Shown piece after piece: positions 1 to 43,890 of a DNA stretch of 43,890 nucleotides. This DNA comes from a virus: positions 1 through 43,890 of IMG/VR virus record IMGVR_UViG_3300045988_042144; one strand, written 5' to 3'. The notes below the pieces were generated by a model. That model had not been told where the DNA came from and ran no database searches. It saw only the letters and a program-made list of their open reading frames with translations. Every line of letters starts with the position of its first letter. Position 1 is the stretch's first letter. Both the position numbers and the translations under genes were made by a program.

Positions 1-102
1 ATCTTTTTTGCGTTGCTCCTCCATGCAGTCCGGGCAATATTTTTGCATCCCACTGTTGAGGACGTAAGGTTTTCCGCACGCCTCACAGATATACGTCCTT
101 CC
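1..102. repeat. Terminal overlap: nt 1-102 identical to nt 43789-43890, consistent with a circular or circularly permuted molecule of about 43,788 bp
   Basis: Direct comparison of the first and last 102 nt; a minus-strand ORF is in frame across the junction. Confidence 0.85.
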
Positions 103-366
103 AAGCTCCCGCGCGTGCCCCGCAGCCTTGGCTTGCTGGTGCAGCCGCGCTCTCTCTAGGTCGCGCTCACGCTTGCAGTCCGGGCATCTCTTGGCACTGG
201 GCCCGCCGATAAATTTCCGACCGCACTCGGTGCAAATGCGTTCAACTTTTTTGCCCTTGTGGATTGCTTTTTGCTGGCACTCGTCGCAAAGTTTTTGATA
301 CCGAGTAGGGTGCGGGATTGGGGTCCCGCACTCTCGGCAAATAACGTTGGCTCTGATCTCAGGCAT
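1..366 (-). CDS. 5' part (N-terminal 122 aa) of a ~390-aa multi-zinc-ribbon protein; the ORF runs off the left edge and continues at 43788..42982
   Basis: Start codon complement at 364-366 with GGAGGTG RBS upstream (minus strand); hand translation MPEIRANVICRECG...CDEC...CTECG...CPDC...CEACG...MQKYCPDCMEEQRKKD; last 16 codons identical to the start of ORF 42982..43836. Confidence 0.6.
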   Translation of the reverse strand, partial: MPEIRANVICRECGTPIPHPTRYQKLCDECQQKAIHKGKKVERICTECGRKFIGGPSAKRCPDCKRERDLERARLHQQAKAAGHARELGRTYICEACGKPYVLNSGMQKYCPDCMEEQRKKD

Positions 367-1096
367 TCGGCACCTCCGTTGGCTGGAGGTATTCGCCGCC
401 CAGCGTGCAGCCTGTGCCGATTGTGCAGTCGGCACCAAGCGTACACCAGTCATCGAGCGTGCAGCGGTCACAGAGACTGCAACCATCGCCGAGATCGCAA
501 CTGCAGCCTAGCTCACAACCGCAGCCCAGCTCGCATCGATCTCCCAGCTTGCAATCGTTGCCCAGCTCGCACTCAAGACCCAGCACGCACCCGTCACCGA
601 GTTCGCACGCACGACCGAGGCTGCACCAGTCTCCCAGCTTGCACTCATCCCCCAGCACGCACCTGTCGCCCAACACGCAGCGCTCGCCGAACTCGCAGTG
701 GTCACCAAATTCGCAGGCATCGCCAAACTCGCACTCGCGGCTCATCGAGCATCCGTCTCCAAACTCACAGCAGTCGCCGATCTTGCACTCTGGGAGCAGG
801 GTGCAGTAGCTTCCGAGCTTGCATCCTTCGCCGAGCTCACAGCGGTAGCCAAGCTGGCAGCCGTTTCCGATCACGCACTCATTCCCCAGCTTGCAGTAGC
901 TGCCCAGCTGGCATCTGTCGCCCAGATTCGCCCCGTCGCCCAGCTCACAAAGACGGCCGAAGGCCACCATGTGTGTGCCGTGAAAGTCGATCTCCGTGCA
1001 GTCAGTGCCGTCCGGGACGACCAGCTGGCCTATCCCATTGCGCTTCAGCGCGTCAAACTCGGCCTGCGTCATCTTGGTCCTAGTGATTTTTTCCAT
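359..1096 (-). CDS. Cys-rich hexapeptide-repeat protein: about 32 tandem LGxxCx units after a ~45-aa N-terminal domain; probable left-handed beta-helix; function unknown
   Basis: ORF track protein shows strict 6-residue periodicity (LGDRCQ LGSYCK LGNECV ...); AGGAGG RBS; paralogue of 40110..40814. Confidence 0.7.
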   Translation of the reverse strand: MEKITRTKMTQAEFDALKRNGIGQLVVPDGTDCTEIDFHGTHMVAFGRLCELGDGANLGDRCQLGSYCKLGNECVIGNGCQLGYRCELGEGCKLGSYCTLLPECKIGDCCEFGDGCSMSRECEFGDACEFGDHCEFGERCVLGDRCVLGDECKLGDWCSLGRACELGDGCVLGLECELGNDCKLGDRCELGCGCELGCSCDLGDGCSLCDRCTLDDWCTLGADCTIGTGCTLGGEYLQPTEVPNA

Positions 1097-1131
1097 TTTT
1101 TTGTCCTCCTTGATTTGTTGGTGGTGTGTGT
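1094..1131 (-). repeat. 38-nt translation-initiation leader, copy A (CATTTTTTTGTCCTCCTTGATTTGTTGGTGGTGTGTGT on the plus strand), filling the whole intergenic gap
   Basis: 37/38 identity with copy B at 1975-2012; contains AGGAGG and a CA-rich tract on the coding (minus) strand. Confidence 0.7.
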
Positions 1132-1520
1132 TACTCTTCGGATCGCGCGGCGGTGATCCGTGCGAGCTGGTCGGTCAGGACAGCGTATCCCAGCAGCATC
1201 TGGGTGTAGCTCGGGGCCTCACGGGCCTCACGAGTCTCCGAGCTGTCACGCTCCCAGTTCTCCACGCTCCGGCGCGGGATGCCGTAGGCGGCTGAAAAGT
1301 TGACCTGGGACATCCCGGTGATGCTGCGGATCGCGGCGATGCCGCCGTGCGACATGGTGTAGATCGCGTCCAGCACGCGGATGATGGAGGAGGTGTCATC
1401 CTCCCCGAATTCATCCATCCAGCCCTGCCAGCCGCGCTCGGCGATGTACAGGTCGTGCTGCTCGGGAGCGTACTCCTGAGCCGAGAACCAGATGCTGCGG
1501 AAGTCGTTGTAGGTGATCAT
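1131..1520 (-). CDS. 130-aa hypothetical protein with a C-terminal HTH-like segment (ITGMSQVNFSAAYGIPRRSVENWE)
   Basis: Internal ATG at residue 65 of ORF 1131..1712 preceded by TAAGGAGG; a 13-nt gap separates it from the upstream gene, suggesting coupling. Confidence 0.55.
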   Translation of the reverse strand: MITYNDFRSIWFSAQEYAPEQHDLYIAERGWQGWMDEFGEDDTSSIIRVLDAIYTMSHGGIAAIRSITGMSQVNFSAAYGIPRRSVENWERDSSETREAREAPSYTQMLLGYAVLTDQLARITAARSEE

Positions 1521-1533
1521 GCTGTTGTCCTCC

Positions 1534-1977
1534 TTAGTCACACTTGATGTAGTAGGTGATGTAGGCGTAGGTGGTGGTGTCCCAACGGGGAGAGCGCACG
1601 ACGTAACCTTCGCCGAATTTTCCGCGATACGGCTCAACGATGGGGCCGTTGACGCGGGAGACGTAACCACGGTAGCTGGCGGTGTGATGCAGATAGTAGT
1701 CAGGACTCGCATCCAGCTCCTCGACGGTCATCGCCGGGAATGTGTCGCTGATGTCGACGGCGCGGAACCCGGTGTTGTGGTACCACTCCGCAACCTTTTC
1801 CCAGTCGCTGGTGGCGGTGCGTCCGGCAGCCTGCTCGCAGCGGATGACGCTGCCGTCAGCCTTGACCTGGTAGCGGTACGCGCCGATGCGGAAATCGGTC
1901 TCGCCGTCGGCGGCGTGGTTGGTGATGGAGCGGATGGTGGAGTTGTTGATCATGGGGATGCGGTTGATTTTGAACAT
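1534..1977 (-). CDS. 147-aa hypothetical protein, first gene of the leftward cassette
   Basis: ORF with AAGGAGG RBS immediately downstream of a consensus promoter; no family recognised. Confidence 0.6.
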   Translation of the reverse strand: MFKINRIPMINNSTIRSITNHAADGETDFRIGAYRYQVKADGSVIRCEQAAGRTATSDWEKVAEWYHNTGFRAVDISDTFPAMTVEELDASPDYYLHHTASYRGYVSRVNGPIVEPYRGKFGEGYVVRSPRWDTTTYAYITYYIKCD

Positions 1978-2072: not shown

Positions 2073-2101
2073 ATTATACCACCAAATGAGTGGTATATCA
2101 A
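2073..2101 (-). promoter_or_regulatory. Near-consensus sigma-A promoter reading leftward (-35 TTGATA, 17-nt spacer, extended -10 TGgTATAAT) with an 8-bp perfect dyad TATACCAC-N7-GTGGTATA over the spacer and -10
   Basis: Reverse complement of 2073-2101 read directly; dyad at about 2075-2097. Confidence 0.6.
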
Positions 2102-2147
2102 CACCTTTTTGAAAAAAAGTGGTGAGATTTTCATTTTTTTTTTTGGC

Positions 2148-2765
2148 ATGATGGAGGCAGGAGGTGATATTGTGACGGAGCAGCAGGTGGATTGGGATCT
2201 GCTCAAGGGCGAGTATGCGACGCAGGACATCAGTCTGCGCCAGATCGCTGCCAAGTATCATCTCTCTCCCTATACAGTGCGCAGGAGGTCGGCTGCGGAC
2301 GGCTGGGTGGCCGCCCGCGAACAGTATCGCACAGAGCTGGCTCAAGAGATGTTGCAGCAAGCCAGCAAGGCAGCAGGGAGGAGCCGCGCGCAGAGTCTGA
2401 TCAAGCTCCAGCACGCCGCTGACCAGATGGTGGATGTGGTGGAGGCGTGTTTTCAGGACGCGACGCAATTTTATCGGTATATTGTAACCCAAAAACGAGG
2501 ATTTGATTCGGATGAGATCGAAAAGGAGTACGGCAAGCTAGACACCAAGGCCGTCAAAGACCTGACTGGCGCGATGCGCGATTTGGCTGCGGTGGTGCGT
2601 GACCTCTACGGTATTCCCACGCTGCCCCAGCAGTCGGCGATGGATCTGGCAGCTGAGCGTCTCAAGCTCGATCAGCGCAAGGCGGACGAGGCCGCTCACA
2701 AGGATGATGCGGCGGAGATCCGCGTTGTGATGGATGATCCCGCGCTGGAGGAGTACAGCTCATGA
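2148..2765 (+). CDS. terS: Terminase small subunit (HTH DNA-binding N-terminus)
   Basis: Position just upstream of and overlapping (ATGA) the large terminase; HTH-like ISLRQIAAKYHLSPYTVRRR; start could instead be GTG 2172 after GGAGGTGA. Confidence 0.6.
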   Translation: MMEAGGDIVTEQQVDWDLLKGEYATQDISLRQIAAKYHLSPYTVRRRSAADGWVAAREQYRTELAQEMLQQASKAAGRSRAQSLIKLQHAADQMVDVVEACFQDATQFYRYIVTQKRGFDSDEIEKEYGKLDTKAVKDLTGAMRDLAAVVRDLYGIPTLPQQSAMDLAAERLKLDQRKADEAAHKDDAAEIRVVMDDPALEEYSS

Positions 2766-22116: not shown

Positions 22117-23619
22117 ATGAGATATGTAACGTATAACACGCGGCTGGACGTGCGCAGGAGCGGCAGCCAGGCGTCGATCAGGGTTCGTCAGGGCGAGCAG
22201 CGGTCTCGGAAGATCGTCGCCACGCTGACGGACGGCGGAAAGCCTCTGGACTACGAATGGCTGGACTCGGTGATCCTGCGCGCGGTGAAGCCGGATGAGA
22301 CGGTGCTCTTTAACGACTGCGAGCTGCTGGGCAGCACGATCACCTATATCTTCGACGAGCAGATGGAAGCCGTGGAGGGCACGGTGACGTGCGAGTTCCT
22401 TGTATACGGCGTGGACGGTGCGATTCTCTACTCGCCCAAGTTCGACGTGTTTGTCGAGGGTGCGCTGTATGACAACGGCAAGATCACCAGCCGGGACGAG
22501 TTCACGACACTGGTCAACGCCTTGGCCACGCTGAACCGCATCGAGGCGACCGAGGAAGAGCGGCAGGAGGCCGAGCTGGGGCGCGAAGATGCGGAGGCGC
22601 TGCGCGACGCTGCCGAGCAGGATAGAGCAGCAGCGGAGGCCGGGCGCGTGGCGGCGGAGGCCGTGCGCGAGGCGAAGATGTCGAACATCTCCGTCACGGC
22701 ATCCACGCTCAAGACGGGCTATCCCGCGACCGCATCGGTCTCGATGACGGCGGCGGAGGGCATTAAGCTGGCGCTGGGGCTGCCGCGCGGCGAGAAGGGC
22801 GAGACCGGGCTGGGCTTTAAGCTGGTGGACTACTTTGCCACGCCGGAAGAGCTGTATGCTGCCGTTCCGAACCCCGTACCGGGCAACGGCTACGGCGTTG
22901 GCACGAACCCCGTGGACGTATACATCTTCGGAGAGCACTCCGGCTGGAAGAACTACGGCCAGATCAAGGGCGCTGTCGGCGACACGGGCGCGACGGGCGC
23001 GTTTTTCTACCCCACACTGGACGACGCGGGGAACCTTAGCTGGTGGAACAACGGCGATCTGGAAAACCCGCAGACCAAGAACATCAAAGGGCCGAAGGGC
23101 GATAAGGGCGTGCAGGGGCCGAAGGGCGAACAGGGCGTACCGGGGCCGAAGGGCGATAAGGGCGACAAGGGCGATCCCGGCGCGGATGCGCAGCTGCCGA
23201 GCTGGGTGGGCAGCAAAAAGCCCAGCTATTCCGCGAACGAGATCGCCTTGGCTGACACGGCGGAAAATTACGAAGCGGTCAACGTCGAGGCGGCGCTGGC
23301 GGAAGAGGCTGCGGCGCGCAAGACGCTCGACGCGGCCAAGGCGGCAAAGTCCACGGTGAAGACGGGCACGCTGCTTGCGTCCAACTGGACGGGCACGGCT
23401 GCGCCCTACACGCAGACCGTCCACATCGACGGCGTGGGCGCTGCCACGAATGCCAGCGCGGACTACGAGCACAGCAGCGACCTTGACACGGAAAAGGCGC
23501 GTGCGACGGCTTGGAGCCGCGTGAGCTACTTTGAGCAGGGCGACGGCTACATCAAAGCGACGTGCATCGGGGACAAGCCGGAGGTCGACCTCCCGCTCAA
23601 ACTGATGGTCATCGGATAG
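22117..23619 (+). CDS. Tail fibre protein: BppU-N-like N-terminus, coiled coil, collagen-like G-X-Y repeats
   Basis: GPKGDKGVQGPKGEQGVPGPKGDKGDKGDPG (nt about 23089-23182); conserved fibre module LVDYFATPEELYAAVPNPVPGNGYGVG. Confidence 0.75.
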   Translation: MRYVTYNTRLDVRRSGSQASIRVRQGEQRSRKIVATLTDGGKPLDYEWLDSVILRAVKPDETVLFNDCELLGSTITYIFDEQMEAVEGTVTCEFLVYGVDGAILYSPKFDVFVEGALYDNGKITSRDEFTTLVNALATLNRIEATEEERQEAELGREDAEALRDAAEQDRAAAEAGRVAAEAVREAKMSNISVTASTLKTGYPATASVSMTAAEGIKLALGLPRGEKGETGLGFKLVDYFATPEELYAAVPNPVPGNGYGVGTNPVDVYIFGEHSGWKNYGQIKGAVGDTGATGAFFYPTLDDAGNLSWWNNGDLENPQTKNIKGPKGDKGVQGPKGEQGVPGPKGDKGDKGDPGADAQLPSWVGSKKPSYSANEIALADTAENYEAVNVEAALAEEAAARKTLDAAKAAKSTVKTGTLLASNWTGTAAPYTQTVHIDGVGAATNASADYEHSSDLDTEKARATAWSRVSYFEQGDGYIKATCIGDKPEVDLPLKLMVIG

Positions 23620-23628
23620 GAGGAGCGC

Positions 23629-25416
23629 ATGAAGACAATCCAGTTCAACGGGCGCAAGCCTATCCCAACCACCATCACGGTGGGCATGGAGAGCGACCAC
23701 AACGCGGAGACTGTGCGCTTTGCCGTAACCGAAACGCCGGAGAGCTACTGCCTGCTGTACATCACGGCGGGCAACTATAGCGACGTGGTGCAGCTCAACA
23801 ACGGCCTGTGGCAGCCGACGCGCACCCAGACCCAGCGCCCCGCGCGCTATCAGGGCTACATCGAGCGCCGCGTGGGGAACGACGTGGTGTGGCACAGCGA
23901 GCCGTTTTTTGTGATCGTGGATGTGCTCCCGGCGGCGAAGAAGAAACTGGAGAAGGCCTATCCCACGCTGCTGGATCAGGTGGCGGCGGAGGCGCAGCAG
24001 GTGCAGCAGAACACAGACGAGGTCATCCGCAAGGCGCAGACGGTCGCTGATTTTCAGAAGGCGACCGGGAACGTCACGGTGGATGTGACGCAGGTGGCAA
24101 GCGACGTGCCCGCATCCGGCGGCGCGACCATCGACACGGAAGGCATTGCGTTTACCTTTGACATCCCCAAGGGAGAGAAGGGCGACAAGGGCAGTCAGGG
24201 CGACAAGGGCGACACGGGCGCTCCGGGGCGCGGCCTGACGATCCTCGATTATTACGCCACGGAGGCAGCGCTGCGCGTGGCGGTGACGAATCCCGCACCG
24301 GGGGATGCATACGGCGTTGGCGTGGCAGCGCCTTATGAGATTTACGTCTGGAGCCCGTCCTTGGGATGGGTGAACAACGGCGCGCTCCAAGGCCAGAAGG
24401 GCGACAAAGGCGACAAAGGCGATCCCGGCCCCAAGGGGGACAAGGGCGCGGACGGTGCGAAGGGCGCGGACGGCGCACCGGGGCCAAAGGGCGAGACCGG
24501 GGCGCAGGGGCCGCAGGGCGCTGTGGGGCCGAACGCGGTCAGCACCTCCACAAGCACGGACATCACCGGGCTGCTCAAGGGCGCTGGCGGGAAGGTGGCC
24601 AAGGCGGTTGCCGGTACGGACTACGCTGCGGCATCCCATACGCATAAAACCAGCGACGTGGAAGGGTTGGATGAGATTTTGAGCAAGCCGGGATTGAACG
24701 CAATATTCATCGACCTGTCTGACGCAAACGCTACGGCGGAAGATATCGCGGAGGGCAAGATCGCCTACGTTGCGGATGCGCAGCGTATTGTCGGCACGGC
24801 AATCGCAGGGGGACTTGATCCCAACAACAAGCCGAGGATCACCTACACTGGTCAATGGAGCGGATGGTACATAGAATTTTATGGAGGCACGCCCTATTGG
24901 GAGGCTGTCTTCTATACTTCCGGCGCGCTTCAAAGCGCTGATAATTACAATGCTGATTTCTGGGGCATCGGCGGCGGTCCGTTCGATTATTCGGGTGTCA
25001 TGAACGGCGGATCGACAAATAAACTGTTGAATTTTGCGCTTTCGGCTACGCAATACGCGGTCACTGTTGGCGCGGGGGCGACGAAGAACACGCGCGGAAG
25101 CGGCGGTGACACCACGGTTGCAAGGGTGGGGGGATCAAGCAGTGCGGCGGCGATTTTTACGGCCAAGGGCGGCATCATGAATCAGTCGGGCACGGGCGAC
25201 AGATACCGATTTGGCGATCCTGATAAGGAAAATGAAGCGGGCGCAGATGGTACGTCCAACGGCTATGCGCACGGTACGGGCGGCTGGCTGCACTGGCGAT
25301 GCGGGGTTGACAACGGCGACGGCGAAGGCTACGGGGCTGGGGGCGACTACGGCGGCTATGGCAACGCGCTGGTGAACGCGCATCCCGGCGCTCTGGTCAT
25401 CCGCATCGCAGTATAG
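23629..25416 (+). CDS. Tail fibre protein 2: collagen-like repeats, SHTH-type fibre motif (AASHTHKTSDVEGLDEIL), C-terminal Gly-rich putative receptor-binding domain
   Basis: G-X-Y tracts at two sites; shared LDYYATEAALRVAVTNPAPGDAYGVG module; C-terminus ends ...GALVIRIAV. Confidence 0.75.
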   Translation: MKTIQFNGRKPIPTTITVGMESDHNAETVRFAVTETPESYCLLYITAGNYSDVVQLNNGLWQPTRTQTQRPARYQGYIERRVGNDVVWHSEPFFVIVDVLPAAKKKLEKAYPTLLDQVAAEAQQVQQNTDEVIRKAQTVADFQKATGNVTVDVTQVASDVPASGGATIDTEGIAFTFDIPKGEKGDKGSQGDKGDTGAPGRGLTILDYYATEAALRVAVTNPAPGDAYGVGVAAPYEIYVWSPSLGWVNNGALQGQKGDKGDKGDPGPKGDKGADGAKGADGAPGPKGETGAQGPQGAVGPNAVSTSTSTDITGLLKGAGGKVAKAVAGTDYAAASHTHKTSDVEGLDEILSKPGLNAIFIDLSDANATAEDIAEGKIAYVADAQRIVGTAIAGGLDPNNKPRITYTGQWSGWYIEFYGGTPYWEAVFYTSGALQSADNYNADFWGIGGGPFDYSGVMNGGSTNKLLNFALSATQYAVTVGAGATKNTRGSGGDTTVARVGGSSSAAAIFTAKGGIMNQSGTGDRYRFGDPDKENEAGADGTSNGYAHGTGGWLHWRCGVDNGDGEGYGAGGDYGGYGNALVNAHPGALVIRIAV

Positions 25417-39551: not shown

Positions 39552-39780
39552 GCCCATGGAGACACGCGACATGGCGTTAGAGATCGGGCGGTTGCTCAAC
39601 CTCCGCAAGGCTGTTATGGATGACAATAATATGGCGATAGCTGCGATGGGCGTTGGGAAAAGCGTGGCGGTAGACACCATCGACAATATCATCAAGTACC
39701 TGCTGGATCTTAGCCGAGAGTACACCGAGGTCTGTTGGAGGCTGCGGTTGTACGGAGAGGAGGCGACCACGCATGACTGA
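39544..39780 (+). CDS. Hypothetical protein (78 aa)
   Basis: ORF overlapping neighbours. Confidence 0.45.
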   Translation: MYKPMETRDMALEIGRLLNLRKAVMDDNNMAIAAMGVGKSVAVDTIDNIIKYLLDLSREYTEVCWRLRLYGEEATTHD

Positions 39781-40117
39781 CACCATCGACCGCGACGAGC
39801 TGCTGCGGGAGCTGACCAAGCGACGTGCCGAAAAGGAGCACGACCGCGACCTCGACAGCGTGTTTTACAGGCAGGGGTACATAGGTGGGTTTTATAAGCA
39901 GGGGTACATGGACGGGTATGACGATGCGATCAAGGCGATTGACAGCATTCTGCCCGCCGACGTGGAGCCGGTGCGCAGGGGCACGTGGAGGATGATCGAC
40001 CTGTCTGACGATTACAAGATCGTCAAGTGTAGCAAGTGCGATTATCTGATGGAGCAGGGGACACAGACACCATACTGCCCGCGCTGCGGAGCGAAGATGG
40101 AGGACAAAAATGCGTAA
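39773..40117 (+). CDS. Hypothetical protein with a C-terminal zinc ribbon (CSKCDY...CPRCG)
   Basis: ORF; CxxC-x15-CxxC. Confidence 0.45.
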   Translation: MTDTIDRDELLRELTKRRAEKEHDRDLDSVFYRQGYIGGFYKQGYMDGYDDAIKAIDSILPADVEPVRRGTWRMIDLSDDYKIVKCSKCDYLMEQGTQTPYCPRCGAKMEDKNA

Positions 40118-40814
40118 GATGACACAAGCGGAGTTTGACGAGCTGAAGCGCAACGAGGATGGATACCTGGTCATCCCGGACTGCACTGACTGCACCGAGA
40201 TTGACTTTGGTGTGGCGGACAAGGTGGTCTTTGGCGACGGATGCAAGCTGGGCAACAGATGCGATCTGGGCTACGGGTGCAAGCTGGGCTACGGGTGCGT
40301 GCTGGGCGACGGGTGCGTGCTGGGCTACGAGTGCAAGCTGGGTGACAGCTGCACACTCGGCAGTGGCTGCGTGCTGGGCGACGAGTGCGTGCTGGGCGAA
40401 TGCTGCGATCTAGGCAACTGGTGCGATCTAGGCGAATGCTGCGATCTGGGCAGCTGGTGCGATCTGGGCTACGGGTGCGAGCTGGGCAACGAGTGCAAGC
40501 TGGGCGAGTACATTGACGCGCGTGCAACGCTTGAAGCGGGGCGTGTGCAGGATGGTCTGTATGTGCAGATCGGTAATATCGGCAGTGAGCATCGGACGGC
40601 CTACTTTTACATCGATAGGGATGGAGCAATGTTTGTCCGCGCTGGGTGCTGGTTTGGCGGGATGAATGACTTTAAGGCACGCGTCAAGGATGTGCATGGC
40701 GGCAAGATCTATGAAGCGCAGTATATGGCAGCGTGCGCTTATGCAGAGGCAGTGTTGCCGCAGATGCTCAAGGAGAGCGACGCGGCAAGGAAGGAGCAGC
40801 ATGACAATCAATGA
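40110..40814 (+). CDS. Second Cys-rich hexapeptide-repeat protein (about 16 LGxxCx units) with an extra C-terminal domain; inverted paralogue of 359..1096
   Basis: Shared N-terminus MTQAEFDELKRN...TDCTEIDF and repeat; about 80% nt identity over the first ~120 nt with the start of the other copy. Confidence 0.7.
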   Translation: MRKMTQAEFDELKRNEDGYLVIPDCTDCTEIDFGVADKVVFGDGCKLGNRCDLGYGCKLGYGCVLGDGCVLGYECKLGDSCTLGSGCVLGDECVLGECCDLGNWCDLGECCDLGSWCDLGYGCELGNECKLGEYIDARATLEAGRVQDGLYVQIGNIGSEHRTAYFYIDRDGAMFVRAGCWFGGMNDFKARVKDVHGGKIYEAQYMAACAYAEAVLPQMLKESDAARKEQHDNQ

Positions 40815-41163
40815 ATTTTTGCAAAAATATCGAAAGCAGCGTAATGGCATGCAGATCGTCCGTCCGCGCGTGAGGTGCGCAGATGGGTATACGGTGTCGG
40901 TGCAGGCGGGGAATAGGTGGAACAGCGAGCCGCAGCTTGACACAGGATGGTACAGCAAGGTCGAACTGGGCTACCCGACAGCGGCGGACGAAGAGTTGCG
41001 AGACTACGCCGATGAAAAAAGAGACCTCCGCGGCACAGTGTACGGTTTTGTGCCGGTCAAACTGGTGGACGAGGTGCTGACAAAGCACGGCGGGATTGTA
41101 GGTGCGGATTTTAGCAACGACGGGGCAGGATTTTGGGAGGGAGAAACCAATGACGACGATTGA
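40801..41163 (+). CDS. Hypothetical protein (120 aa)
   Basis: Internal ATG of ORF 40666..41163 overlapping the previous stop. Confidence 0.4.
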   Translation: MTINEFLQKYRKQRNGMQIVRPRVRCADGYTVSVQAGNRWNSEPQLDTGWYSKVELGYPTAADEELRDYADEKRDLRGTVYGFVPVKLVDEVLTKHGGIVGADFSNDGAGFWEGETNDDD

Positions 41164-41356
41164 GTTTCTTCAGCGGCTGATCCGCACAAATGAGACCAAC
41201 ACCCGCCACGCACAGGAGAGGCATGACGATGGAGCACTGGTACGGCTGGACGAGACGCGCCAGCACCTGTTCGCGGCGTTGCGGGCGGTGGAGCTTGCTG
41301 AGCAGATCGGCGCGATGTTTGGGGAGAACAAAGAAGTAAGGGAGGACGAAAAATGA
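41150..41356 (+). CDS. Hypothetical protein (68 aa)
   Basis: Internal ATG after GGAGGGAGAAACC. Confidence 0.4.
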   Translation: MTTIEFLQRLIRTNETNTRHAQERHDDGALVRLDETRQHLFAALRAVELAEQIGAMFGENKEVREDEK

Positions 41357-41733
41357 AAAAGAAACTGATTGCGGCGTTGGCCGTGTGCCTTGTGATGGTG
41401 CTAACGGGATGCACCGAAGCCGATAAGGTCAACTACAATATGTCCAAGCAAGCGTCGTATTTTGAATCTGAGCGGCGTATCACCGTATATAATGCCCGTA
41501 CCGATCTGGTTATCTTGTATGCCGAAGGTTACATGGACATCTCCAACAATAGTACTAATGAGCTGGTTGTCACGGTTAAGACTGGGCCTAGTACCTACAA
41601 GAAGAATTACATTTATCTCAACGATTATACGATGTATGTTGTTGAGGATATCACTGGCACACACGCCGACCCGTACCATTACGAGCTGCATTTTCATACT
41701 GAGTTCCCTGTTTCTGTAGGCGTTAAACCATAA
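41353..41733 (+). CDS. Lipoprotein (signal peptide plus LTGC lipobox), low-GC moron
   Basis: MKKKLIAALAVCLVMVLTGC; local GC clearly below the genome average. Confidence 0.65.
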   Translation: MKKKLIAALAVCLVMVLTGCTEADKVNYNMSKQASYFESERRITVYNARTDLVILYAEGYMDISNNSTNELVVTVKTGPSTYKKNYIYLNDYTMYVVEDITGTHADPYHYELHFHTEFPVSVGVKP

Positions 41734-42914: not shown

Positions 42915-42984
42915 GAGCCACCCATTCGGCTGGGGTGGCTCTTTTTCTGTGTGAATAAGCCGCCACACATGGGGCGGCTTATCA
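42915..42984. terminator. Bidirectional terminator region between convergent units: hairpin 1 GAGCCACCC-ATTCGGCT-GGGTGGCTC plus T5 (plus-strand polarity); hairpin 2 ATAAGCCGCC-ACACATGG-GGCGGCTTAT abutting the stop of the minus-strand gene
   Basis: Read directly. Confidence 0.7.
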
Positions 42985-43890
42985 CTGATCTGTCTTTTGC
43001 GGCTCTTGCTCCGGCGTTGCTTCTTTTTTTTGTGCTTCGCGGGCGCGCTTATTTTGATATGCATTGGCTGCGTACTCTCTATACGCAATCTTGGCACACT
43101 TACGGCAATACTGCTGACTAGGAGTCTCTAGCACATAATCATTGCCGCAGCGCTTGCACGGATAGACCTCGCCTATATGGCGGCTGGCCTTCGGGCGCAT
43201 GCGTCTTGAGTATTCCAACGTCTGCTGGCGCTGGACCGCTATCTTGCATGCGGGGCAGTATTTTGCAATGCGATCTCCCATAAATTCGATACCGCACTTT
43301 TGACAAGTTTTTTTTACATCTCGGCGCGCGTGCTTCGGTAATTTTTCAGCCGCGGCCGCCAACGCCGCTATGTCTTTGTTTGCCATGTAGTCGCGGACCA
43401 GCTGCTGCAAGAGTTGTGATGCGGACATCCCATTAACAAGAGCCGCATTCGCAAACGACCTAGCCGCATCTACGGGCAATTTGCAACAGACTGCTTTGTG
43501 GGGTTGCACTAACTGATCGGTCGCTCCTGACGTCGAGAGCTCAGTCATCTGGCGTCTGGATTTTTGCGGATGCCCGGCGCCCTTTGTCGGGTGATAGTCC
43601 GGATCAGGATTACCCATTGACGCGTCGTATTGTTGCAACGCTCTTTTTTCCGCACATTCCGGGCTGCATGTAATCTCGCGCGTCCCCGGCTCGAGTATCT
43701 TACCGCAGATCACACATACTCTCATACGCGGGTATTTGGGATACTTGCCTTTATTGGCACGCATGTAGTCATTCACCTTTGCGAGGACATCTTTTTTGCG
43801 TTGCTCCTCCATGCAGTCCGGGCAATATTTTTGCATCCCACTGTTGAGGACGTAAGGTTTTCCGCACGCCTCACAGATATACGTCCTTCC
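42982..43890 (-). CDS. 3' part (C-terminal about 302 aa) of the multi-zinc-ribbon protein. It carries four more CxxC-(9-13)-CxxC ribbons and an RHH-like segment (KLPVDAARSFANAALVNGMSASQLLQQLVRDYM); the gene starts beyond the right edge, at window 366 in the circular frame
   Basis: ORF track 42982..43836 plus in-frame upstream codons to the window end that duplicate window nt 49-102. Confidence 0.6.
   Translation of the reverse strand, partial: GRTYICEACGKPYVLNSGMQKYCPDCMEEQRKKDVLAKVNDYMRANKGKYPKYPRMRVCVICGKILEPGTREITCSPECAEKRALQQYDASMGNPDPDYHPTKGAGHPQKSRRQMTELSTSGATDQLVQPHKAVCCKLPVDAARSFANAALVNGMSASQLLQQLVRDYMANKDIAALAAAAEKLPKHARRDVKKTCQKCGIEFMGDRIAKYCPACKIAVQRQQTLEYSRRMRPKASRHIGEVYPCKRCGNDYVLETPSQQYCRKCAKIAYREYAANAYQNKRAREAQKKEATPEQEPQKTDQ
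43789..43890. repeat. Right copy of the 102-nt terminal overlap
   Basis: Identical to nt 1-102. Confidence 0.85.

What the first reader, a model, noticed from the sequence alone, without database searches (positions are those of the whole stretch)
359..1096. Cys-ladder hexapeptide-repeat proteins (LGxxCx x16-32), two divergent paralogues
Both 359..1096 (about 32 units) and 40110..40814 (about 16 units plus an extra C-terminal domain) have a conserved ~45-aa N-terminus (MTQAEFDxLKRN...TDCTEIDF) followed by perfectly periodic LGxxCx hexads. The period fits a left-handed beta-helix, but with Cys at the normally small inward-facing position. That predicts a stacked cysteine ladder (metal-binding or disulfide-rich). 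Repeat number differs two-fold between copies, suggesting expansion and contraction. No known phage function is recognised.
Basis: seen in the sequence. Interest (0 to 1): 0.75.

Follow-up and report, generated by a model that had tools for sequence, protein, structure and literature searches.

The report
Cysteine-cored beta-solenoid phage proteins
Two genes of a temperate phage of gut Clostridia encode rod-shaped repeat proteins with a cysteine at every sixth residue; they belong to a large phage family of unknown function, and the cysteines look like core packing residues rather than a metal or disulfide site.

Summary
Gene A (359..1096, minus strand) has 31 gap-free C-x-[LIF]-G-x-x hexads, 30 of them with Cys. 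Gene B (40110..40814, plus strand) has 15, all with Cys. They share a ~40-residue N-terminal cap, and B has an extra ~100-residue C-terminal domain.

Both match Pfam Hexapep (E 2.8e-35 and 1.4e-14) and belong to a family of more than 500 unnamed phage and prophage proteins (phrog_5353, phrog_2154). Across about 1,750 family hexads Cys is 92%, Leu 91% and Gly 93%, and arrays run from 4 to 32 hexads.

A metal or disulfide ladder is not supported. The few Cys replacements are mostly Val or Ile, and sister groups with the same caps use Ala, Ser or Asn. Neither protein has a signal peptide.

The conserved unit is B's C-terminal domain (phrog_20532, no Pfam or PDB relative). It follows hexapeptide, YdcK-type, pentapeptide and bactofilin-like solenoids interchangeably.

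A is a truncated paralogue lacking that domain. It has the longest array and sits in a reverse-strand, promoter-bearing operon, coupled to a multi-zinc-ribbon gene. Function is unknown; the best guess is a non-enzymatic binding or steric scaffold.

The parts
359..1096 (-). Gene A: 245-aa Cys-hexapeptide protein (N-cap + 31 hexads + 10-residue tail, no C-terminal domain)
392..949 (-). A's repeat array, residues 50-235: 31 uninterrupted C-x-[LIFM]-G-x-x hexads
   Evidence: codon diversity
950..1072 (-). A's N-terminal cap, residues 9-49 (MTQAEFDALKRN...TDCTEIDF...), 70% identical to B's
40110..40814 (+). Gene B: 234-aa full-architecture paralogue
40242..40511 (+). B's repeat array, residues 45-134: 15 hexads, Tandem Repeats Finder period 18 and 54
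40512..40811 (+). B's C-terminal domain (phrog_20532 type; predicted four strands plus two helices). It is the only copy in the genome.
1..366 (-). 5' part of the 390-aa multi-zinc-ribbon gene Z. Its ATG at 366 overlaps A's 3' end by 8 nt.
42982..43890 (-). 3' part of gene Z across the circular junction (43789-43890 repeats 1-102)
1131..1520 (-). o129: 129-aa ORF with a helix-turn-helix-like region (phrog_25567), upstream of A in the same operon
1534..1977 (-). o147: first gene of the reverse-strand operon
2073..2101 (-). Near-consensus promoter-like site (TTGATA, 17-nt spacer, TG, TATAAT; 11 of 12 matches) upstream of o147
1084..1131 (-). Leader and ribosome-binding site of A, duplicated at 1965-2012 (92% identical) in front of o147
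   Evidence: D8
39773..40117 (+). up114: 114-aa ORF with a C-terminal zinc ribbon, overlapping B's start by 8 nt. It is conserved upstream of B-type genes only in close relatives.
40801..41163 (+). down120: 120-aa ORF overlapping B's end. It is fused in frame to B-like proteins in P0051 and P0072.

Best explanation
**What they are.** A and B are real genes of a 43,788-bp circular temperate siphovirus-type phage of uncultured gut Clostridiales/Eubacteriales. They encode non-enzymatic, cytoplasmic beta-solenoid proteins.

**Structure.** An N-terminal cap starts a perfectly regular hexapeptide solenoid. Inferred from the canonical hexapeptide motif:
- Positions 1 (Cys) and 3 (Leu) form the buried core.
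- Gly at position 4 makes the turn.
- Positions 2, 5 and 6 are solvent-exposed and free to vary.

The Cys columns are a packing variant of the 'small residue' position of that motif. They are not a metal or disulfide site.

**Where the function sits.** The solenoid is a rigid rod whose length and surface vary. In the full architecture (B and almost all relatives) the conserved function lies in the ~75-100-residue C-terminal alpha/beta domain. That domain is found behind at least four unrelated solenoid repeat types.

**Most likely role (inferred, not shown).** A stoichiometric binding or steric module acting early in infection, in host takeover or phage-versus-defence conflict. The C-domain would supply the conserved contact or oligomerisation, and the solenoid a fast-evolving surface or spacer.

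**Gene A.** A is a truncated derivative cut just after the 'GEY' linker. It has the longest array in the family. It was captured in a reverse-strand operon with its own promoter (moron-like) and is translationally coupled to a multi-zinc-ribbon protein.
For: **Fold and frame**
- Pfam Hexapep E 2.8e-35 (A) and 1.4e-14 (B).
- Gap-free alignment to the LpxD helix, E 1.7e-12.
- AlphaFold2 mean confidence 90.6 (A) and 87.6 (B), with a strict six-residue strand/turn pattern.

**Not an enzyme**
- All NCBIfam acyltransferase scores fall far below their cut-offs, for example LpxD 92 against 207.
- No insertion or loop occurs in 31 hexads.

**Core role of Cys**
- Family frequencies are Cys 92%, Leu 91% and Gly 93%; positions 2, 5 and 6 vary.
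- Non-Cys residues at position 1 are Val 2.9%, Ile 2.3%, Ser 1.3% and Ala 0.3%. The hydrophobic replacements need two base changes, yet outnumber Ser, which needs one.
- Sister proteins with the same TQxEFD N-cap and the same C-domain have A-x-F-G, N-x-I-G or S-x-F-G hexads.
- The N-termini are hydrophilic, so there is no signal peptide.

**Modularity of the C-domain**
- It has 321 hits among 1.84 billion representative proteins.
- It follows Hexapep, YdcK-solenoid, Pentapeptide and bactofilin-like repeats, and also occurs as short proteins (some may be fragments).

**Fast-evolving surface**
- B against its L011 orthologue is ~77% identical in both end domains and 100% at Cys, Leu and Gly.
- At positions 2, 5 and 6 it is only ~20% identical, which is no more than random hexads of the family. 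The two differ by one hexad.

**Genomic context**
- The genes always sit in phage early regions, next to Cro/CI-like regulators, RecT/ERF/Sak, SSB or replication genes.
- A second phage (L005) also carries two paralogues.

**Anatomy of A**
- Related phage L001 lacks A and Z.
- L013 carries an in-frame fusion of A's start to Z.
- A is the only one of 122 family members without a C-domain.
Against: - No experiment or annotated homologue assigns any function. The host-takeover or conflict role rests only on gene position, modular architecture and surface variability.
- Unit shuffling by recombination or neutral drift could explain the surface variability equally well.
- 92% Cys is much stronger conservation than packing alone would seem to need, since Ser, Thr, Ala and Val fill this position in known hexapeptide proteins. 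A thiol-specific role within this subfamily is therefore not excluded.
- The AlphaFold2 models are right-handed, which conflicts with the sequence-based left-handed assignment. AlphaFold2 is also known to over-predict confident beta-solenoids for repeats (PMC11795689), so the in/out assignment of residues is inferred, not shown.
- A may be a decaying remnant: another phage (L013) carries a deleted A-Z fusion.
Confidence: 0.5

Rival explanations
1. Cysteine ladder as a functional thiol site. The stacked Cys columns would bind soft metals (Cu(I), Zn, Fe-S), act as a redox buffer or sensor, or form disulfides that rigidify the rod.
For: - Cys is 92% conserved across ~1,750 hexads despite diverged codons.
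- Ser, which needs only one base change, is rare (1.3%).
- Extra Cys occurs at position 6 in 5.5% of hexads.
- In this phage both paralogues overlap zinc-ribbon genes.
Against: - Homologous sister groups with the same N-cap and C-domain use Ala, Ser or Asn instead.
- Replacements are mainly Val or Ile.
- There is no signal peptide, and the hosts are gut Clostridia-type bacteria, so disulfides are unlikely.
- The hexad has no conserved His, Asp or second-Cys partner.
- In a three-sided solenoid the Cys residues of one turn would sit at different corners, and only same-column neighbours about 4.8 A apart could interact (inference).
- Zinc-ribbon neighbours are not conserved beyond close relatives.
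Confidence: 0.15
2. DNA-mimic decoy. The acidic rod would imitate double-stranded DNA, as pentapeptide-repeat proteins (Qnr, MfpA) do structurally and Ocr and ArdA do functionally. It would block restriction enzymes, other DNA-targeting defences, or gyrase, with the C-domain acting as the dimeriser.
For: - A has pI 4.25 and a net charge of -22 on the array; B has pI 4.45.
- The CxLGxx family has a median pI of 5.08.
- The predicted shape is a rigid rod.
- The same C-domain is fused to genuine pentapeptide repeats.
- The genes sit in phage early regions.
Against: - Acidity is not conserved. The mean is -0.27 charge per hexad, and several members are near zero.
- C-domain proteins overall have a median pI of 6.3, and 37% are basic.
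- Position 2 is Lys as often as Glu.
- No PADLOC match or other known anti-defence match was found.
Confidence: 0.15
3. Left-handed beta-helix acyl- or acetyltransferase. This is how some automated pipelines name the homologues (LpxD, LpxA, 'isoleucine patch' enzymes).
For: JGI's automatic names for a few homologues, and partial NCBIfam and PDB matches to LpxD, LpxA and GlmU helices.
Against: - Every enzyme model scores far below its curated cut-off.
- Only the repeat region matches.
- There are no loops, no substrate-binding domains and no conserved catalytic His.
- The array is perfectly regular and its length varies from 4 to 32 hexads.
Confidence: 0.03
4. Self-assembling filament or scaffold (bactofilin-like). 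Solenoids would stack end to end, or bundle, to build an intracellular structure during infection, with the caps regulating polymerisation.
For: - The AlphaFold2 models are right-handed three-sided solenoids, as I recall bactofilin to be.
- One C-domain protein has a weak Bactofilin match (P0144, E 2.5e-5, below the cut-off).
- A lacks a C-terminal cap.
Against: - Neither A nor B matches the Bactofilin profile.
- Both ends are capped in nearly all members.
- The surfaces are highly charged.
- There is no direct evidence.
Confidence: 0.07
5. Non-functional repeat DNA or a decaying pseudogene (for A in particular).
For: - A lacks the family's C-domain.
- A related phage carries a deletion fusing A to Z, and another lacks A altogether.
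- All six frames are open across the array.
Against: - All 31 hexads are in phase with no stop or frameshift, although the units are only 57% identical at the nucleotide level and their synonymous sites have diverged.
- There is a strong ribosome-binding site, a promoter, and overlap with the downstream gene.
- The identical protein is recorded on three contigs.
Confidence: 0.05

Closest known systems
Hexapeptide-repeat left-handed beta-helix proteins (Pfam PF00132): LpxD, LpxA, GlmU, and the non-enzymatic eIF2B-epsilon and dynactin p25/p27
   Same: The motif is the same, [LIV]-G-x-x-[small]-x. The profile matches are strong: Hexapep E 2.8e-35, LbH_EIF2B 67.9 bits against a cut-off of 54. The alignment to the LpxD helix has no gaps. 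The rod is non-catalytic, as in dynactin p25/p27 and eIF2B-epsilon (my recollection, not tested here).
   Different: - Cys fills 92% of the small position, where PROSITE's hexapeptide signature lists S, T, A or V as I recall it.
- The array has no loops or insertions over up to 32 hexads.
- There are no enzyme domains, and curated enzyme cut-offs are missed.
- AlphaFold2 models come out right-handed.
- The genes are phage early genes with their own N-cap and C-domain.
Pentapeptide-repeat proteins (Qnr, MfpA, AlbG; PF00805)
   Same: These are also regular, cap-flanked, non-enzymatic beta-solenoids whose exposed positions vary. Members of the phrog_20532 C-domain family carry true pentapeptide arrays in place of the hexapeptide array. 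Foldseek ranks EfsQnr and AlbG among the nearest solved folds, though not significantly.
   Different: The period is 5 rather than 6, with four sides rather than three. Their DNA-mimic and gyrase-protection function has not been shown for this family, and acidity is not conserved here.
YdcK family (PF18836 solenoid repeat; PDB 2F9C)
   Different: The repeat is different (A-x-V-x-G-x, no Cys) and so is the N-terminal domain. Its function is also unknown.
Insect beta-helical antifreeze proteins (Tenebrio TmAFP, spruce budworm AFP); from my own recollection, not tested here
   Same: These are beta-helices with a Cys at every sixth residue and inward-pointing Cys. They are the best-known 'cysteine-laddered' solenoids.
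   Different: They are secreted and disulfide-bonded, with 12- or 15-residue coils and Thr-x-Thr ice-binding faces. A and B have no signal peptide and no Thr-x-Thr face. The period-54 nucleotide repeat and the alternating charges fit three hexads per turn.
Bactofilin (PF04519); fold recalled, not tested here
   Same: It is a right-handed three-sided solenoid of about 18 residues per turn, as I recall, which is the geometry AlphaFold2 proposes for A and B.
   Different: A and B do not match its profile. Bactofilins polymerise and lack this N-cap and C-domain.

Membership tests
Hexapeptide-repeat superfamily (Pfam PF00132 Hexapep) | Tandem [LIV]-G-x-x-[small]-x hexads scoring above the Pfam gathering threshold | tested here: met
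   A scores 119 bits and B 53.4 bits against a cut-off of 27. A's LbH_EIF2B score of 67.9 also exceeds its cut-off of 54.
Left-handed parallel beta-helix fold | Left-handed three-sided solenoid with three hexads (18 residues) per turn | tested here: inconclusive
   - Sequence says yes.
- The 54-nt super-period in B and the opposite charges at a lag of three hexads fit three hexads per turn.
- Foldseek lists no left-handed helix among its matches.
- AlphaFold2 is unreliable for repeat solenoids.
Left-handed beta-helix acyl/acetyltransferases (LpxA, LpxD, GlmU, NeuD etc.) | Whole-protein score above the curated NCBIfam cut-off | tested here: not met
   The best score is 92.3 bits against a cut-off of 207 (LpxD subfamily). 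All 23 models that A matches are below their cut-offs.
Left-handed beta-helix acyl/acetyltransferases | Loops or insertions and flanking domains that build the inter-subunit active site, with a catalytic His | tested here: not met
   A has 31 hexads without a single insertion or deletion. It contains only 3 His. Its flanks are a 40-residue cap and a 10-residue tail.
Left-handed beta-helix acyl/acetyltransferases | Obligate trimer | not testable with these tools
   Only monomer models could be made.
Phage families phrog_5353 / phrog_2154 (unknown function) | Profile match | tested here: met
   A matches at E 4.9e-23 and 2.6e-9; B at 7.4e-11 and 6.1e-4.
phrog_20532-type C-terminal domain family | Domain with the motif [IV]-G-x-[IL]-G-S ... 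V-R-x-G-C-[FW]-F-G ... F-x-x-x-V-K-x-x-H-G ... Y-x-A-A | tested here: met
   B matches phrog_20532 at E 2.5e-13. The window's six-frame translation gives one profile hit, at B, E 1.2e-33. A has no such domain, so A fails this feature.
Pentapeptide-repeat DNA mimics (Qnr/MfpA) | A(D/N)LxX pentapeptide period and a conserved, strongly acidic, DNA-like surface | tested here: not met
   The period is 6 and no Pentapeptide profile hit was found for A or B. A and B are acidic, but acidity is not conserved in the family. Binding to gyrase or restriction enzymes cannot be tested here.
Disulfide-laddered antifreeze beta-helices (TmAFP type) | Secreted, intra-coil disulfides, Thr-x-Thr face, 12-residue coil | tested here: not met
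   The Cys spacing of 6 matches. However, the N-termini are hydrophilic with no signal peptide, and position 2 is mostly Lys or Glu. Like charges recur at a lag of two hexads, which would stack unfavourably in a 12-residue coil.
Cys-lined metal-storage or metal-binding proteins (Csp, metallothionein-like) | Cys indispensable, with bound metal | tested here: inconclusive
   Cys is 92% conserved within the subfamily, but sister groups with the same caps replace it with Ala, Ser or Asn. Metal content cannot be tested here.
Known anti-phage defence proteins (PADLOC-DB) | Profile match | tested here: not met
   A, B and o129 have no hit at E <= 0.1. Z, o147 and up114 have only marginal hits, E 0.005-0.05.

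The most novel reading that the evidence does not exclude
Phages may have a previously unrecognised class of modular effectors: one conserved ~75-residue C-terminal domain (phrog_20532) coupled to any rigid beta-solenoid (hexapeptide, YdcK-type, pentapeptide or bactofilin-like). The rod would be a fast-evolving decoy or binding surface aimed at host DNA-handling or defence machinery. Within this class, the Cys-cored branch would hold three stacked columns of about ten buried thiols each, with their own chemistry (a soft-metal chain, or a redox or electrophile sensor). That would explain why Cys is kept at 92% when Ser, Ala or Val would fold equally well.
Probability: 0.15. Interest if true: 0.8.

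Novelty: new variant of a known kind. Interest (0 to 1): 0.5.

Why it matters
- **A large, unstudied family.** Several hundred phage and prophage proteins share this architecture, and gut Clostridia phages are among their carriers. None has a name, a solved structure or a known function.
- **A sharper question.** The domain analysis changes the question from "what does a cysteine ladder do?" to [quoted passage not shown]. That can be tested with one pull-down or deletion experiment.
- **A structural oddity.** A solenoid with about 30 stacked buried thiols would be unusual and could serve as a protein-engineering scaffold.
- **A test case for prediction tools.** Two confident AlphaFold2 models have the opposite hand to what a textbook hexapeptide sequence implies. 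This is a concrete example of predictor behaviour on repeat proteins.

Tried and rejected
- **Enzyme reading.** Rejected because the NCBIfam cut-offs are not met.
- **Known defence proteins.** PADLOC gave nothing for A or B.
- **Pfam on the isolated domains.** There was nothing for the C-domain and only sub-threshold hits for the N-cap.
- **C-domain profile against PDB sequences.** No hit even at E <= 10.
- **Whole-model fold searches.**
  - Foldseek against PDB found nothing significant for B or A.
  - The AFDB library was unavailable.
- **Link between two C-domains.** I tested whether the C-domain of the 'MKTIYLW' Cys-hexapeptide subfamily (phrog_32789) is related to B's C-domain. hhalign gave E 0.12, so this is not supported.
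- **Cultured phages.** Nucleotide search found nothing related to the first 20 kb of the window. Protein search found only distant 'hypothetical protein' hits in Aeromonas, Shewanella and Flavobacterium phages, plus one Ruminococcus gnavus phage record that I did not inspect.
- **Literature.** Eight searches found no paper on Cys-hexapeptide phage proteins, this C-domain or the handedness question. They did turn up the AlphaFold2 solenoid caveat.
- **Volume-compensation idea.** I considered whether Cys+Leu is equivalent in core volume to Ala+Phe. I dropped it because C-x-F-G arrays are also common.
- **Positional selection on surface residues.** Not attempted, because unit shuffling makes orthology of individual hexads unreliable.
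Full report
**1.

ORF 359..1096 on the minus strand (gene A, 245 aa) and ORF 40110..40814 on the plus strand (gene B, 234 aa) are present as described.

- In A, residues 50-235 form 31 consecutive hexads C-x-[LIFM]-G-x-x with no insertion or deletion. Thirty of the 31 start with Cys and one with Ala.
- In B, residues 45-134 form 15 hexads, all starting with Cys. A 100-residue non-repeat domain follows.
- The two proteins align at 48% identity, E 9e-41. Their N-terminal caps are 70% identical over 40 residues.

The reading frame is secure. Pfam Hexapep gives E 2.8e-35 for A and 1.4e-14 for B. AAGGAGG lies 8 nt upstream of A's ATG (D8). Independent gene calls on an identical public contig agree. 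The long ORFs in the other five frames are a by-product of the repeat.

The repeat is not recent slippage. A's 18-nt units are only 57% identical on average. They use both Cys codons (5 TGT, 25 TGC), several Leu codons and four Gly codons. B's array is more uniform: 72% identical, with a Tandem Repeats Finder period of 18 and a higher-scoring period of 54.

**2. Genome context**

The window is a circular contig. Bases 1-102 are identical to 43789-43890, so the genome is 43,788 bp.

It is a temperate phage. It carries:
- an integrase;
- CI/Cro-like helix-turn-helix proteins;
- YqaJ and RecT recombination genes;
- a DnaB_2-like replication protein;
- RusA;
- a large terminase and a portal.

Relatives are found in metagenome-assembled genomes of uncultured human-gut Eubacteriales and Clostridiales.

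B lies in the rightward early operon, after RusA. Its start overlaps a 114-aa zinc-ribbon ORF by 8 nt, and its end overlaps a 120-aa ORF.

A lies in a four-gene leftward operon, o147-o129-A-Z, between the early genes and the terminase.
- Upstream of o147 is a near-consensus promoter-like site (TTGATA, 17-nt spacer, TG, TATAAT) at 2101->2073.

This operon is a variable spot.
- Related phage L001 has only the o147-like and o129 genes there.
- L013 has o147, a 126-aa gene, and then an in-frame fusion of A's N-terminus plus six hexads to the C-terminal part of Z (P0009).
- A's leader and first codons duplicate those of o147: 48 nt, 92% identical (D8).

A ends '...CTLGGEYLQPTEVPNA'. It stops just after the 'GEY' that begins the linker to the C-domain in B-type proteins. 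A is therefore a truncated derivative of a B-type gene. Its N-cap is closest to P0007, which occupies the B position in phage L001.

**3. The family**

A search of 5.8 billion protein clusters found 526 homologues at E <= 1e-3. Almost all are unnamed, and a few carry automatic 'acetyltransferase' or 'LpxD' labels. PHROGs files them under phrog_5353 and phrog_2154, both of unknown function.

Statistics from 122 proteins (about 1,750 hexads):

| Hexad position | Main residues |
|---|---|
| 1 | Cys 92.4% (then Val 2.9%, Ile 2.3%, Ser 1.3%, Ala 0.3%) |
| 2 | Lys 34%, Glu 26% |
| 3 | Leu 90.8% |
| 4 | Gly 93.3% |
| 5 | Asp 33%, Asn 29% |
| 6 | Gly 37%, otherwise varied |

- Arrays run from 4 to 32 hexads, with a median of 14.
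- A has the longest array and is the only member without a C-terminal domain.
- B and its L011 orthologue differ by exactly one hexad. They are ~77% identical in both end domains and 100% identical at Cys, Leu and Gly.
- At positions 2, 5 and 6 they are only ~20% identical. That is no better than random hexads of the family, which run at 22-30%.

Every context I examined is a phage or prophage early region, next to lysogeny-switch regulators and recombination or replication genes. Phage L005 also carries two paralogues. In cultured phages I saw only distant 'hypothetical protein' hits.

**4. Fold**

By sequence this is a textbook hexapeptide repeat. A aligns without gaps to the helices of LpxD (E 1.7e-12), LpxA and GlmU, with Cys falling on their Val/Ala/Ser/Cys position.

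AlphaFold2 gives confident models: mean confidence 90.6 for A and 87.6 for B, with a strict two-residue strand and four-residue turn pattern.

The models are not left-handed, however.
- **Foldseek.** This method is sensitive to handedness. Among its weak matches it lists no left-handed helix, only right-handed beta-helices and pentapeptide proteins.

AlphaFold2 is documented to give confident but unrealistic beta-solenoids for repeat sequences (PMC11795689), and my alignments were shallow (52-54 sequences). I judge the true fold to be left-handed with about 65-70% probability, on the strength of the sequence evidence. This remains unresolved.

Two independent hints favour three hexads per turn over a 12-residue coil.
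- B has a 54-nt super-period.
- Charge at position 2 is anticorrelated at lags of one and three hexads and positively correlated at a lag of two, each by 4-5 standard deviations against shuffles.

The second hint is largely a consequence of Lys/Glu alternation, so it is weak.

**5. What the cysteines are for**

The inward position of Cys is inferred from the canonical motif. I could not read it from coordinates.

Evidence for a packing role:
- The rare replacements are mainly Val and Ile, which need two base changes. Ser needs only one and is rarer.
- Proteins with the same TQxEFD-type N-cap and the same C-domain carry A-x-F-G, N-x-I-G or S-x-F-G hexads instead.
- There is no signal peptide, and the inferred hosts are gut Clostridia-type bacteria. 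Disulfides are therefore unlikely.
- The hexad has no conserved second metal ligand.

Evidence against a purely packing role: 92% conservation, with Ser, Thr and Ala nearly absent, is stronger than packing alone obviously requires. I keep a thiol-specific function at about 15%.

**6. The conserved part is the C-terminal domain**

B residues 135-234 (phrog_20532, unknown function) found 321 proteins at E <= 1e-3 among 1.84 billion representatives. In these proteins the domain follows:
- C-x-[LFI]-G hexads;
- A, N or S hexads;
- YdcK-type A-x-V-x-G-x repeats (PF18836);
- true pentapeptide repeats (PF00805, E down to 7.6e-36);
- a weakly bactofilin-like repeat.

It also occurs as short 70-130-aa proteins, some of which may be fragments.

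In B numbering, the invariant or nearly invariant residues are G158, S159, G179, C180, F188, V192, H196 and Y205. The domain has no Pfam family and no PDB sequence relative. The window contains a single copy of it, in B.

The modularity runs both ways. The 'MKTIYLW' Cys-hexapeptide subfamily ends in a different domain (phrog_32789) that is not demonstrably related (hhalign E 0.12).

**7. Mechanism**

Shown:
- These are real genes in a large phage family.
- They are hexapeptide solenoids with an invariant Cys/Leu/Gly frame and a variable surface and length.
- They are not enzymes by curated thresholds.
- They match no known defence protein.
- The C-domain is modular.
- A is truncated and sits in a variable, promoter-bearing operon.

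Inferred: the solenoid is a rigid rod used as a variable surface or spacer, and the conserved activity or contact lies in the C-domain. The genes then act by stoichiometric binding early in infection, or from the prophage in A's case.

A DNA-mimic version is attractive for A (pI 4.25, array charge -22) and B (pI 4.45). Acidity is not conserved across the family, though: the CxLGxx median pI is 5.08, and the C-domain family median is 6.3 with 37% basic.

**8. Verdict**

The finding is genuine. It points to an uncharacterised, widespread phage protein architecture.

The specific 'metal or disulfide ladder in a left-handed helix' reading is only partly supported. This is a new variant of a known kind, the hexapeptide beta-solenoid, of moderate interest. 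Most of that interest now lies in the promiscuous C-terminal domain, the unexplained insistence on Cys, and the conflict between sequence and AlphaFold2 over handedness.

Noticed in passing
window 1-102 and 43789-43890: The two ends are 100% identical over 102 nt. The window is therefore a circular assembly of a 43,788-bp phage genome, and genes near the ends must be read across the junction.
   Followed up: yes
window 1-366 (-) joined to 42982-43788 (-): A 390-aa protein with many CxxC zinc-ribbon pairs spans the junction. It is internally duplicated (residues 36-114 resemble 275-353 at 38% identity). It has a partial match to phrog_1271 ('HNH endonuclease'), and its start overlaps A's end by 8 nt.
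   Followed up: partly
window 1084-1131 and 1965-2012: A 48-nt leader, ribosome-binding site and first codons are duplicated (92% identical) in front of A and in front of o147. This may be a recombination scar or a shared translation-initiation cassette.
   Followed up: partly
window 2073-2101 (-) and 2143-2171 (+): Divergent promoter-like sites lie in the AT-rich gap between the reverse operon and the small-terminase gene. The minus-strand site matches 11 of 12 consensus bases and has an extended -10 TG. The small-terminase ORF as listed (from 2007) or as publicly called (from 2028) probably starts too far upstream.
   Followed up: no
L013 2129-2695 (protein P0009): A related phage carries an in-frame fusion of A's N-terminus plus six hexads to the C-terminal part of the zinc-ribbon protein. 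This looks like a deletion with one end inside the repeat array.
   Followed up: partly
window 579-733 vs 40242-40396 (also 506-607 vs 40440-40507): The A and B arrays are inverted repeats of each other (71-78% complementary over up to 155 nt). They flank the ~3.3-kb arc that holds the last early genes and gene Z, so they could in principle mediate an inversion.
   Followed up: no
window 22967-24491: Collagen-like Gly-X-Y repeats (9-nt and 27-nt periodicity) lie in the structural region, presumably in a tail-fibre gene.
   Followed up: no
window 39862-39915: A 27-nt tandem duplication lies inside the zinc-ribbon ORF upstream of B. It encodes FYRQGYIGG / FYKQGYMDG.
   Followed up: no
proteins P0051 and P0072 (homologues of B): In these, the B-like protein is fused in frame to a homologue of the 120-aa ORF that follows B (window 40801-41163). 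This hints at a functional link, or at recurrent loss of the stop codon.
   Followed up: partly
window 41353-41733 (+): A 126-aa predicted lipoprotein matches Pfam Phage_VG64 (E 8e-40). PHROGs labels the same family a 'recombination directionality factor', which fits poorly with the lipoprotein-like N-terminus I saw in the sequence.
   Followed up: no
L005 6001-6933 and 7642-8430: An unrelated prophage also carries two divergent hexapeptide paralogues (310 and 262 aa) in its early region. Paired paralogues therefore recur in this family.
   Followed up: partly
models mf1e145327809 and m6b145eded191: AlphaFold2 gives high-confidence right-handed solenoids for a canonical hexapeptide sequence. 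This may be a useful test case of predictor behaviour on repeat proteins.
   Followed up: partly
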